64,000 nucleotides of DNA. Origin: a virus. This document shows, in pieces, positions 50,555 through 55,494 of this stretch. The position numbers and the translations under genes were made by a program. Every line of letters starts with the position of its first letter. Within the stretch, counting starts at the first letter, position 1. The stretch is from IMG/VR virus record IMGVR_UViG_3300022699_000293, positions 23,131 through 87,130 of that record, one strand, 5' to 3'. Under the pieces are notes generated by a model. It ran no database searches, was not told where the DNA came from, and was given only the letters and a program-made list of their open reading frames with translations.

Positions 50555-50938
50555 GGGGGTGACACGGTTTCTACGTTTGTGCAGGCCATGTTTTAGGTGC
50601 ACGTCCCGCTTTGTGTATTTCAGCGGGTTAAAAAGAATACACAAGTAAAGTTGGCAACAACGTAATTCCTTTCCCGAAGGTTGCAGCGACACCCGTCGCC
50701 AAAGCTGCCTGATGTGGGAATGTTCTGCGCGTAAGGTGCTCAAGTAGCGCGTAGGGCAACATTCACTTGAGCTAAGCTAAAGGGATCTCTGCTATCTTTA
50801 GTCGAAAAACAAGCACGCAGAGCAATGCTGTTTCACATTCGTTTGCTTGTGTGTAACAGTAAGGAAAAGCAAACTAAACGTGTGAATGACCTGGGCATAA
50901 CCCACAGGCGGACTCGGGTTCGACTCCCGACACCTCCA
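50555..50938 (+). ncRNA. ssrA: tmRNA; tag peptide (A)GNNVIPFPKVAATPVAKAA
   Basis: GGGGGTG/CACCTCC acceptor with G3:U wobble and discriminator A; T-arm TCGGGTTCGACTCCCGA; tag ORF 50653-50712 ending in AA-stop; CCA not encoded. Confidence 0.92.
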
Positions 50939-50973
50939 CTAGTTCTTTGACAACATAATACCATGATTTCCTC

Positions 50974-51039
50974 TGTCCCCTCACGAAACATCCTTAATAA
51001 GGATGTCTCAGATCTCCTGACTGACGAGTTGAGGGGACA
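50974..51039 (+). ncRNA. Type II hammerhead ribozyme
   Basis: C-GAAA, stem III ACATCCTT/AAGGATGT, GUC cleavage triplet (51005-07), stem I TCAG/CTGA, CTGACGA-G core, stem II TGTCCCCTC/GAGGGGACA. Confidence 0.88.
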
Positions 51040-51128
51040 AAGCAGTTAACTGATCTGCTTATCAATAACAGTTGGTACAGTGATTTCTGTGGAAAAAAAG
51101 TTTAAGGTCTACGTACTTTAACCTTTTT

Positions 51129-51237
51129 GGGAAATTAGTCGACGGACTAAAAAGGGAGACATTGCAATTGTCGCCTGGAGGTTCGAACCCTCACGCTGTA
51201 TCCGAAAATAAGTAAACTTCGGCAACTTGTTTTCCCT
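51129..51237 (+). pseudogene. Aberrant tRNA-Cys(GCA)-like element with ~37-nt insert after the T-arm
   Basis: GACA-TTGCAAT-TGTC anticodon arm; GAGG-TTCGAAC-CCTC T-arm; GGGAAA/TTTCCC acceptor with U discriminator displaced downstream. Confidence 0.5.
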
Positions 51238-51264: not shown

Positions 51265-51348
51265 GCCGGGATGGCGGAATTGGTAGACGTGAGGGACTTA
51301 AAATCCCTTGGGCAATTACCCGTGCGGGTTCGATTCCCGCTCCCGGTA
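51265..51348 (+). tRNA. tRNA-Leu(TAA)
   Basis: Full cloverleaf with long variable arm. Confidence 0.95.
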
Positions 51349-51357
51349 TTGTCATAT

Positions 51358-51431
51358 TGCAGGGTGGAGCAATTCGGTAGCTCGCCAGGTTCATACCCTG
51401 GAAGTTGCGGGTTCAAATCCCGTCCCTGCTA
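51358..51431 (+). tRNA. tRNA-Met(CAT), probably initiator
   Basis: Cloverleaf; 1:72 mismatch (T/T). Confidence 0.9.
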
Positions 51432-51664
51432 ATGTTCGTTGGCAGCGAACTAGTCATGGTAGGGAGACTCTAAAGATCAGGAATGCTAATTCCTTGCCCC
51501 CCCCCTACCCAGCTACTAGAGCTGAAATTTTCACTGAGTATTCTAGTCCCTGCTCAGTGTGCTGCTACAAATAAATAATAAAGTAAGCATATTCCCATCT
51601 TTCCCAAACTGTTTCTTTAACTCGCAGTATGTTACGTACTGCAGAAAAATCCTAGGAGGAAATC

Positions 51665-52309
51665 ATGACACAACAACAGAAAACAACTTTAGCAGAACTC
51701 CTACTCCGGAGAAAGGAATTGAACGTTCTGTATAACACGCGGGCGTTCGCCGTATCCAATCTTCGGGATCAATTGCGTAGGAGGCAAGTCTCCGACGAAG
51801 TGGACCAGTTGGAGGGACAAGTGTCCCTTGTAGATCCCGAAGAGCTGGAAAAGGAGACCAACTACTACGCACATCAGCGCCGGTTATCAGACAGCGTGGT
51901 CCAACAAGCCAATTGGACAACAACGCTTGAGGTGCCTCAAGCGTTGATGGATGACGAAAACACGGACGGAACCATGTCCTGCAAGCTGGCAGAACTCCTC
52001 GTGCGTCGCAAGGAACTCGACAGCGCGACACATTCGCGGAGCGTCGATCTGGGAGTCGTGGGACCTTACGTCGAGCAAAACGGCGTCTGGAAGCAAGTCA
52101 ACGAAAGAATCCCCGTGGAGAAGGGACTAAGCGAACTCTACCAGAAAGTAGAAAGGAAAGGACCGTCCCAGATCAGGGCGTTCATGCTGGTAGACACGTG
52201 CCAGAAGAAACTGCGTCTTCTGGACACCTACATCCAGAAGACAAACTGGGACACCGTGGTGGAGGTGCCCGCCACGGTCTTCGAGCCCTACCAACCTCAG
52301 AACTTGTAA
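51665..52309 (+). CDS. DIP1984-like protein, two tandem domains
   Basis: LAELLLRRKEL..VQQANWTT and LAELLVRRKEL..IQKTNWDT; SD aggagg; visibly higher GC than flanks. Confidence 0.7.
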   Translation: MTQQQKTTLAELLLRRKELNVLYNTRAFAVSNLRDQLRRRQVSDEVDQLEGQVSLVDPEELEKETNYYAHQRRLSDSVVQQANWTTTLEVPQALMDDENTDGTMSCKLAELLVRRKELDSATHSRSVDLGVVGPYVEQNGVWKQVNERIPVEKGLSELYQKVERKGPSQIRAFMLVDTCQKKLRLLDTYIQKTNWDTVVEVPATVFEPYQPQNL

Positions 52310-55054: not shown

Positions 55055-55194
55055 AGAACTTAAACAAAAATTAGAATTTTATAAAAATGATCCAATTTTC
55101 AATTTTCGAATTGACGAAGCGACCGTGTTAGCTTTGATAGAAGATTTGGAATTATTGGAATCACAAATTGAAAAACAATTTACTGGGTAAATTT

Positions 55195-55494
55195 ATGAAA
55201 TTGTGGATAGGCCCAGAACCTCCTTTGGACAACTCTTCATGGATTTGGGCACGTACTTTTAAAACTGCCATGCGTCTACTAGAACAAACTGATTGGATGT
55301 TTGACATAATTAGTACTGATTATTACTTGGGAGGAGAAAAAACAGGTTACCACATTTTAGAAAAAATATTACAACGCGTATACCTGAATAAACGTCCATT
55401 TCCTTTGATAGGCATACACGCAAAAAAACGCGAAGAACAGGCTACTTTACAACTGATGGCTGCTAGAATAAATAACGCTAAAATGAAACATTAG
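55195..55494 (+). CDS. Cyclic-phosphate-processing receiver-like domain protein (degenerate)
   Basis: KLWI..P..WIWART..A..LL..IISTDYYLG..TGY.IL..IH pattern. Confidence 0.55.
   Translation: MKLWIGPEPPLDNSSWIWARTFKTAMRLLEQTDWMFDIISTDYYLGGEKTGYHILEKILQRVYLNKRPFPLIGIHAKKREEQATLQLMAARINNAKMKH

What the first reader, a model, noticed from the sequence alone, without database searches (positions are those of the whole stretch)
50974..51039. Complete type II hammerhead ribozyme 35 nt downstream of tmRNA
Seen: all core nucleotides are present (CUGACGA, GAAA, GUC) with three paired stems, and cleavage is predicted after 51007. Known: HDV-like theta ribozymes process phage tRNA 3' trailers. Inference: this hammerhead cuts the tmRNA precursor away from the downstream tRNA polycistron. 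Cleavage leaves a 2',3'-cyclic phosphate, and a cyclic-phosphate-processing receiver-like gene lies in the same island (55195).
Basis: partly seen in the sequence, partly recalled or inferred. Interest (0 to 1): 0.75.

Follow-up and report, generated by a model that had tools for sequence, protein, structure and literature searches.

The report
Orphan hammerhead ribozyme behind phage tmRNA
A complete self-cutting hammerhead RNA motif of a well-known class really does sit just after this uncultured phage's ribosome-rescue RNA (tmRNA) gene, far beyond chance, but it is absent from all related phages found, its cutting is untested, and its proposed link to a nearby repair-type gene does not hold up.

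Summary
Observation confirmed. Window 50974-51039 (+) has every conserved hammerhead core base and type II topology, with cleavage predicted between C51007 and U51008. It is the only such motif in the 87-kb record. No equal appeared in 3000 shuffles or 1500 decoy cores, and none of 45 same-pattern hits in 596 Gb of genomes folds as one. It passes the published type II descriptor. The Rfam model matches full length at 22 bits, below the 37-bit cut-off.

It is atypical: stem I has only 4 bp, and stem II is an 11-bp clamp that should hold the two products together. The usual pseudoknot is possible only in competition with that clamp.

Five related phage records have a homologous tmRNA but no hammerhead. 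The motif lies in a ~126-nt indel between the tmRNA end and a shared trailer hairpin. No homologue was found anywhere, so there is no covariation evidence.

The cut would fall 66-69 nt past the tmRNA end, so it cannot make the mature 3' end. The cREC gene also occurs in hammerhead-less relatives, so that link is unsupported.

Earlier notes of this scan report hammerheads beside phage tmRNA or tRNA genes on other DNA. Verdict: a new member of a known kind, of modest interest.

The parts
50555..50941 (+). One-piece tmRNA gene. It has the G3.U70 pair and discriminator A50938, followed by CUA instead of CCA.
   Evidence: Rfam RF00023 at 100.1 bits, full length. It is homologous to the tmRNAs of L001-L005 (alignment A2).
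50653..50712 (+). tmRNA tag reading frame, GNNVIPFPKVAATPVAKAA followed by a stop.
   Evidence: Translation. The frame and the ...AA ending are conserved in relatives.
50942..51067 (+). Indel of about 126 nt relative to related phages. It holds a linker, the hammerhead and one extra hairpin (51040-51060).
   Evidence: Alignments A1 and A4. The shared trailer hairpin follows the tmRNA directly in relatives but sits at 51068-51091 here.
50974..50984 (+). Hammerhead stem II, 5' strand (11.x), ending in C11.1.
   Evidence: Read from the sequence; scanner; fold.
50985..50987 (+). Core bases G12 A13 A14.
   Evidence: Aligned to GAA of RF02276.
50988..51006 (+). Stem III hairpin: 8 bp, loop AAU, closed by A15.1-U16.1.
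51007..51008 (+). C17 and N1.1. The predicted scissile bond lies between 51007 and 51008.
   Evidence: Position follows from hammerhead numbering applied. Cleavage itself was not tested.
51008..51020 (+). Stem I hairpin: 4 bp (UCAG/CUGA), loop AUCUC. It is unusually short.
   Evidence: RF02276 has 18 nt where this RNA has 9.
51021..51027 (+). Core bases C3 U4 G5 A6 C7 G8 A9 (CUGACGA).
51028..51039 (+). Stem II 3' strand (10.x), with U51030 bulged. GAGG at 51031-51034 could instead pair with loop I bases UCUC (51013-51016) as a pseudoknot.
51068..51091 (+). Trailer hairpin shared with related phages. In them it starts directly after the tmRNA CCA.
   Evidence: The pattern ACAGTYGGYA...CTGTG is unique in the window and occurred in 0 of 100 shuffles. 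Alignment A4.
51128..51237 (+). Degenerate tRNA-like element. It aligns to the first tRNA after the tmRNA in relatives and is not called by ARAGORN or Rfam.
   Evidence: Alignment A1; scan note e1-6083644.
51265..51432 (+). tRNA-Leu(UAA) and tRNA-Met(CAU), the first regular tRNAs of the downstream array. Neither encodes CCA.
   Evidence: ARAGORN, Rfam, 3' ends.

Best explanation
The 66-nt element is a genuine type II hammerhead ribozyme. It is carried in a lineage-specific segment of about 126 nt between the phage tmRNA gene and the trailer hairpin that related phages place directly after the tmRNA.

It is transcribed with the tmRNA and the downstream tRNA or tRNA-like genes. It most likely self-cleaves between C51007 and U51008.
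- The upstream product is the tmRNA with a 66-69-nt trailer. That trailer ends in the stem III hairpin and a 2',3'-cyclic phosphate.
- The downstream product is a 5'-hydroxyl RNA that carries the tRNA array.

The cut is a host-independent nick in the stable-RNA precursor. It does not make the mature tmRNA 3' end, which still needs trimming to A50938 and CCA addition by host enzymes.

The extended 11-bp stem II should keep the two halves paired until they are unwound or degraded.

Shown: the motif, its non-random quality, its context and its absence from relatives. Inferred: co-transcription, catalysis and the biological role.
For: - Complete core, and Watson-Crick pairs next to the core in all three stems.
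- It is the only hit in 87 kb.
- None of 3000 shuffles and none of 1500 decoy cores reach its 23 stem bp.
- None of 45 same-pattern hits in 596 Gb of genomes folds as a hammerhead.
- It passes the type II RNAMotif descriptor and scoring of Perreault et al. 2011, by my hand scoring: bonus about -9, where -7 or lower is needed (PMC3088659 Text S1).
- RF02276 aligns over its full length with all core columns matched, at 22.0 bits, E 0.008.
- The 66-mer folds far better than shuffles, z -4.2.
- It is on the same strand as the tmRNA and tRNAs, in an ORF-free spacer. No promoter or terminator is predicted between them.
- Hammerheads that process long phage transcripts into units are documented (PMC3088659).
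- A 4-bp loop I / 3'-tail pseudoknot, UCUC with GAGG one nt after a 2-bp stem II, is possible with the geometry that paper describes.
Against: - The Rfam score is below the gathering cut-off (22 against 37 bits). The model was silent on longer stretches.
- There is no homologue anywhere, so no covariation evidence. It is absent from five related records. Two pattern scans of IMG/VR, one of GTDB genomes and blastn against 50,697 phage records found nothing.
- Stem I is only 4 bp.
- A competing register sequesters core bases C3-A6 and is 1.9 kcal/mol more stable in the nearest-neighbour model.
- The pseudoknot competes with a much stronger 9-bp helix. It would arise by chance in roughly 10-25% of cases (my estimate).
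- The 11-bp stem II (-18.8 kcal/mol) is outside the 2-5 bp of the published type II descriptor. It would hinder product release and favour religation.
- Host RNase P and 3'-end nucleases could separate these RNAs without a ribozyme, as they must in the relatives.
Confidence: 0.55

Rival explanations
1. The hammerhead is real and active, but it belongs to the inserted module or to the RNA downstream of it, not to the tmRNA. It sets a 5'-hydroxyl end for the structured RNA that follows (hairpins at 51040-51127 and the tRNA-like element at 51128-51237). Alternatively it is simply a passenger of a small inserted segment, and its place next to the tmRNA is incidental.
For: - The hammerhead lies inside a ~126-nt indel that separates the tmRNA from its otherwise adjacent trailer hairpin.
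- Relatives mature a homologous tmRNA without it.
- The cut is 66-69 nt from the tmRNA end.
- Earlier notes of this scan on other phages reached this reading for hammerheads beside tmRNA or tRNA genes (e1-6031148, e1-5879070). These are leads only, not evidence.
Against: - No homologue of the downstream 51040-51127 stretch was found, so nothing shows it is a functional RNA.
- The direction of the indel cannot be set, because the window's tmRNA is the outlier of the five.
Confidence: 0.25
2. It is a hammerhead-derived element that is now inactive, or too slow or misfolded to matter. It acts only as a stable three-way junction or hairpin in the tmRNA trailer.
For: - Stem I is short. The only candidate for a tertiary contact is a 4-bp pseudoknot that is outcompeted. 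The alternative register is favoured by 1.9 kcal/mol.
- A 10-bp hairpin within the 3' half also competes.
- The clamp-like stem II favours religation.
- The Rfam score is below threshold.
- Perreault et al. report some hammerhead-like candidates that were inactive in vitro.
Against: - Every core base is intact, and so are all three closing pairs. That is not expected after long neutral decay.
- The inactive examples in that paper mostly carried core deviations.
Confidence: 0.15
3. It is a chance look-alike: a structured spacer whose junction bases happen to spell the hammerhead core.
For: - It is an orphan sequence with no conservation evidence.
- The scan covers very many windows, so rare chance hits must occur somewhere.
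Against: - A motif of this quality occurred less than once in 3000 shuffled windows, and never with 1500 decoy cores on real phage DNA.
- Extrapolating from those counts gives about 1e-4 per window, well below my rough estimate of how often phages carry real hammerheads.
- It also lies on the right strand, in a non-coding cluster of RNA genes.
Confidence: 0.04

Closest known systems
Type II hammerhead ribozymes of bacteria and phages (Rfam RF02276, clan CL00010; Perreault et al. 2011, PMC3088659)
   Same: - Identical core: CUGANGA, GAAA and UH.
- Same permutation: stems I and III are capped and stem II is open.
- G10.1-C11.1 and A15.1-U16.1 closing pairs.
- Intergenic position in a phage transcript.
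- It passes the paper's type II descriptor.
- The Rfam model aligns over its full length.
   Different: - It scores 22 bits against the 37-bit cut-off.
- The stem I hairpin is 13 nt against about 22 in the consensus.
- The 3' tail normally pairs with loop I as a pseudoknot. Here it pairs with the 5' flank, turning a 2-bp stem II into an 11-bp clamp with a bulged U.
- No sequence relatives were found.
Theta (minimal HDV-like) ribozymes next to phage tRNA genes (Kienbeck et al. 2024, PMC10879173)
   Same: - A small self-cleaving ribozyme in the 3' trailer of a phage-encoded translation RNA whose gene lacks CCA.
- The proposed role is host-independent processing.
   Different: - It is a different ribozyme class; no HDV-like match was found.
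- Theta ribozymes cut at their own 5' end, directly at the tRNA 3' end. This hammerhead cuts internally and leaves a 66-69-nt trailer.
- No phage CCA-adding enzyme or RNA ligase was found in this fragment.
Hammerheads that flank genes in prophage polycistronic transcripts (Perreault et al. 2011, Figure 3)
   Same: - A hammerhead between functional units of one long phage transcript.
- Its presence is sporadic and lineage-specific.
   Different: - There is a single copy here, not a cluster.
- The units it separates are stable RNAs (tmRNA and tRNAs) rather than mRNAs.

Membership tests
Hammerhead ribozyme, type II (RF02276) | Conserved core: C3 U4 G5 A6 N7 G8 A9, G12 A13 A14, A15.1-U16.1, H17 | tested here: met
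   CUGACGA at 51021-27, GAA at 50985-87, A50988-U51006 and C51007. All are aligned to the model's core columns.
Hammerhead ribozyme, type II (RF02276) | Three helices around the core, with standard pairs directly next to it | tested here: met
   G51028-C50984, U51008-A51020 and A50988-U51006. Stems are 4, 11 and 8 bp.
Hammerhead ribozyme, type II (RF02276) | Type II permutation: stems I and III closed by loops, stem II open | tested here: met
   The order is 11.x, GAA, stem III hairpin, C17, stem I hairpin, CUGACGA, 10.x.
Hammerhead ribozyme, type II (RF02276) | Published RNAMotif type II descriptor and score (Perreault 2011, Text S1) | tested here: met
   I read the descriptor and scored it by hand. 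With stem II counted as 2 bp, stem III 8 bp, stem I 4 bp, loops of 3 and 5 nt and a 7-nt core, the bonus is about -9 (-7 or lower needed). This was not run in RNAMotif itself.
Hammerhead ribozyme, type II (RF02276) | Rfam covariance-model score at or above the gathering cut-off (37 bits) | tested here: not met
   22.0 bits, E 0.008, and only when 87 nt were searched. There was no hit on larger stretches. The loss comes from the short stem I and the non-consensus tail, not from the core.
Hammerhead ribozyme, type II (RF02276) | Tertiary contact between stems I and II; in most type II members this is a pseudoknot of 4 bp or more between loop I and the 3' tail | tested here: inconclusive
   UCUC 51013-16 can pair with GAGG 51031-34 (3 Watson-Crick pairs plus 1 G.U) one nt after a 2-bp stem II. 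The same tail forms a 9-bp helix with 50974-82. The chance expectation is about 0.1-0.25 (my estimate).
Hammerhead ribozyme, type II (RF02276) | Conservation and compensatory changes in homologues | tested here: inconclusive
   No homologue was found.
Hammerhead ribozyme, type II (RF02276) | Mg2+-dependent self-cleavage 3' of position 17 | not testable with these tools
   This needs in vitro transcription or RNA-end mapping. No sequencing run was listed for this DNA.
Theta / HDV-like ribozymes | Nested double-pseudoknot HDV fold, with the cleavage site at the ribozyme's 5' end next to the tRNA 3' end | tested here: not met
   No HDV-like family matched at E up to 10. The fold is a three-way junction, and the predicted cut is internal, 66-69 nt after the tmRNA.

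The most novel reading that the evidence does not exclude
Phages may repeatedly and independently recruit hammerheads to the trailers of their own tmRNA and tRNA genes. That would make them a ribozyme route for processing stable-RNA precursors, the hammerhead counterpart of theta ribozymes.

In this instance a variant has the usual loop I pseudoknot partner captured by a 5' strand. This gives two exclusive states, an 11-bp clamp and a pseudoknot. Such a pair of states could make cleavage, or the release of the tmRNA from the tRNA array, conditional or reversible.
Probability: 0.12. Interest if true: 0.6.

Novelty: new member of a known kind. Interest (0 to 1): 0.3.

Why it matters
The biological roles of bacterial and phage hammerheads are still mostly unknown. 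A hammerhead placed between a phage tmRNA and a tRNA array gives a concrete, easily tested case of ribozyme processing of stable RNAs. The clamp-versus-pseudoknot architecture is a small structural variation that could be tested for its effect on speed and product release.

By itself this is one orphan example of a well-known ribozyme class. It adds an instance, not a principle.

Tried and rejected
- **Rfam at gathering threshold, and at E up to 10 on 381 nt:** no hammerhead. The genome search with RF02276 on the own record at E up to 10 also found none. These blanks were filter effects, because 87 nt gave a 22-bit match.
- **Related loci by neighbouring proteins:** the 314-aa protein found none in IMG/VR. 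The 606-aa and DUF6847 proteins gave L001-L004. A tmRNA tag pattern gave L005. A metagenome scan gave L013. All have the tmRNA and none has a hammerhead.
- **Another ribozyme class in the relatives' spacer:** none at E up to 10.
- **Hammerhead-specific pattern scans:** IMG/VR gave 1 chance hit in a coding region. The stem I pattern gave 7 chance hits. GTDB genomes gave 45 hits, none folding as a hammerhead.
- **blastn of 50942-51130 against phages at E up to 1:** no match.
- **Spacer-to-spacer local alignment with L003:** not above shuffles.
- **The look-up of sequencing runs:** no run was listed, and no RNA holder was listed.
- **Second hammerhead in the 87-kb record, allowing one core mismatch:** only weak hits at coding-region level.
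- **RNA ligase, RtcB and CCA-adding enzyme in the 87-kb fragment:** none. The fragment is about half a genome, so this does not show absence.
- **Literature searches for hammerhead plus tmRNA or tRNA processing in phages:** no paper describes this arrangement.

Full report
**Context.** The window is bases 23131-87130 of an 87-kb IMG/VR virus record, estimated about 49% complete.
- It encodes a sigma factor, ParB, an SNF2 helicase, a LigD-type polymerase/phosphoesterase and other phage genes.
- From about 50.5 kb it carries an island of RNA genes on the + strand. These are a one-piece tmRNA (50555-50941, Rfam 100 bits) and 13 tRNAs.
- The tmRNA looks functional. It has the G3.U70 pair, discriminator A50938 and a tag frame GNNVIPFPKVAATPVAKAA-stop that is conserved in relatives.
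- Its gene reads CUA where CCA should be. Nearly all the tRNA genes also lack CCA.

**The observation.**
- Stem II is 50974-84 / 51028-39: 11 bp, with U51030 bulged and G10.1-C11.1 at the core.
- GAA is at 50985-87.
- Stem III is 50988-95 / 50999-51006: 8 bp, loop AAU, closed by A15.1-U16.1.
- C17 is at 51007.
- Stem I is 51008-11 / 51017-20: 4 bp, loop AUCUC.
- CUGACGA is at 51021-27.

This is the type II permutation, and the scissile bond is 51007/51008.

**Is it more than chance?** Yes.
- A scanner for the type II layout finds only this site in the window and in the whole record. That holds even when one core mismatch and all three permutations are allowed.
- Among 3000 dinucleotide shuffles of the window, loose motifs occur 0.24 times per window. 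Only 2 shuffles reach 20 stem bp and none reach the observed 23.
- I kept the real sequence (171 kb of this and related phages) and replaced the core by 1500 decoy cores of equal information. None reached 22 bp, while the true core gave exactly one hit, this one.
- The core-plus-closing-pair pattern occurs 45 times in 596 Gb of prokaryote genomes. None of those folds as a hammerhead; the best has 12 bp.
- Extrapolating from these counts, I put chance at about 1e-4 per window.

**Membership.**
- The element meets the criteria of Perreault et al. 2011: consensus core, no mispair next to the core, and no multiple mispairs in short stems.
- By my hand scoring it passes their type II RNAMotif descriptor.
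- Rfam was silent at the gathering threshold and even at E up to 10 on 381 nt.
- When only 87 nt were searched, RF02276 matched over its whole length (model positions 1-66) at 22.0 bits, E 0.008, below the 37-bit cut-off.
- That alignment shows where the score is lost. The stem I hairpin has 9 nt where the model has 18, and the 3' tail does not follow the consensus. All core columns match.
- It is therefore a hammerhead by the class definition. By Rfam's curated threshold it is an outlier.

**Atypical anatomy.**
- In most type II hammerheads stem II is 2-5 bp, and the 3' tail right after it pairs with loop I as a pseudoknot needed for fast cleavage at low Mg2+.
- Here a 2-bp stem II (G-C, U-A) is followed by one nt (U51030) and then by GAGG. 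GAGG can pair with loop I bases UCUC (51013-16), which is the consensus geometry.
- The same tail forms a far stronger 9-bp helix with 50974-82. This gives the 11-bp stem II, with a duplex energy of -18.8 kcal/mol.
- The two states exclude each other. The pseudoknot alone is not statistically remarkable, about 0.1-0.25 by chance on my estimate.
- The repeated CUGACUGA allows stem I to pair in a register that sequesters core bases C3-A6. That fold is the RNAfold minimum (-28.8 against -26.9 kcal/mol for the hammerhead fold).
- After cleavage the two products would stay paired (net -12.5 kcal/mol). This hinders release and favours religation.
- None of this abolishes catalysis in principle, but it lowers my confidence in fast, complete cleavage.

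**Relatives.**
- Five related viral records (L001/L002, L003/L005/L013, L004) carry a clearly homologous tmRNA inside a tRNA island.
- Their neighbouring proteins are 52-72% identical to those of the window.
- None has a hammerhead after the tmRNA or elsewhere.
- No other ribozyme family is detectable in their spacer.
- In all of them a hairpin (CACAGTTGGCAGCTGTG, then AAAAAG) follows the CCA directly.
- The window keeps this hairpin at 51068-91. The pattern is unique in the window and occurred in 0 of 100 shuffles (alignment A4).
- The hammerhead therefore lies in a ~126-nt indel (50942-51067) between the tmRNA and its trailer hairpin.
- Whether this was a gain or a loss cannot be decided, because the window's tmRNA is the outlier of the set.
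- No homologue of the hammerhead or its flanks was found in IMG/VR, GTDB genomes or GenBank phages. There is no covariation evidence.

**Function.**
- Same strand, an ORF-free spacer and no predicted sigma-70 promoter or terminator between tmRNA and tRNAs all fit one precursor. The phage has its own RNA polymerase and sigma factor, so unknown promoters cannot be excluded.
- The most likely mechanism is self-cleavage at 51007/51008. It nicks the precursor between the tmRNA and the downstream tRNA-like and tRNA genes.
- Theta ribozymes cut at the tRNA 3' end. This cut leaves a 66-69-nt trailer, so it cannot produce the mature tmRNA end.
- Relatives mature the same tmRNA without any ribozyme. The role may instead concern the downstream RNA, or the hammerhead may simply be a passenger of the inserted segment.
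- Earlier notes of this scan describe hammerheads beside phage tmRNA or tRNA genes in other phages, with similar conclusions. I used them as leads only.

**The cREC link.**
- The gene at 55168-55494 does match PF20274 (E 3e-9). Iyer et al. 2021 (PMC7824862) predicted this domain to process cyclic phosphates; this has not been shown.
- The same gene sits in the tRNA islands of relatives G001 and G002, which lack the hammerhead.
- No RNA ligase or RtcB was found in the fragment.
- The gene does not co-vary with the ribozyme, so the proposed coupling is unsupported.

**Verdict.** This is a real, complete but orphan type II hammerhead in an unusual neighbourhood: a new member of a known kind. My confidence by claim:
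- About 0.9 that it is an evolved hammerhead.
- About 0.6 that it cleaves in vivo.
- Lower that its purpose is tmRNA processing.

Interest is modest.

Noticed in passing
window 50936-50945: The tmRNA gene reads ...CCUCC-A-CUA instead of CCA, while all five related tmRNAs encode CCA. Nearly all tRNA genes of the window also lack CCA, so the host must add it.
   Followed up: partly
window 50555-50941: ARAGORN did not report the tmRNA, although Rfam scores it at 100 bits over its full length.
   Followed up: no
window 51128-51237: A degenerate tRNA-like element aligns to the first regular tRNA after the tmRNA in relatives. Its 5' end, GGGAAAUUAGUCGACG, resembles a tmRNA 5' end and produced a weak 'tmRNA_permuted' match (14.5 bits). 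It is not called by ARAGORN or Rfam. See also scan note e1-6083644.
   Followed up: partly
window 55168-55494; L014; L015: A cREC_REC (PF20274) gene is a conserved member of the tRNA island in this phage group. It is present in G000, G001 and G002, about 3-4 kb downstream of the tmRNA in G000 and G001.
   Followed up: partly
window 51093-51125: An A/U-rich 13-bp hairpin is flanked by an A-run and a U-run (AAAAAG...CUUUUU). It could be a weak bidirectional terminator or a processing site. The terminator scan did not call it.
   Followed up: no
L003 7487-7580 (also L004, L005, L013): This subgroup of relatives has an extra segment of about 90 nt between the trailer hairpin and a conserved GC-rich block. 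L001 and L002 lack it. No Rfam family matches it.
   Followed up: partly
window 51665-52309: A DUF6847-domain protein gene (E 4.7e-10) lies inside the tRNA island and is conserved in relatives.
   Followed up: no
window 51013-51037: The 3' cleavage product can fold on its own into a 10-bp hairpin (UCUCCUGACU with AGUU-GAGGGGA, -10.2 kcal/mol). This extends the loop I / tail complementarity and could displace the 5' product after cleavage.
   Followed up: no
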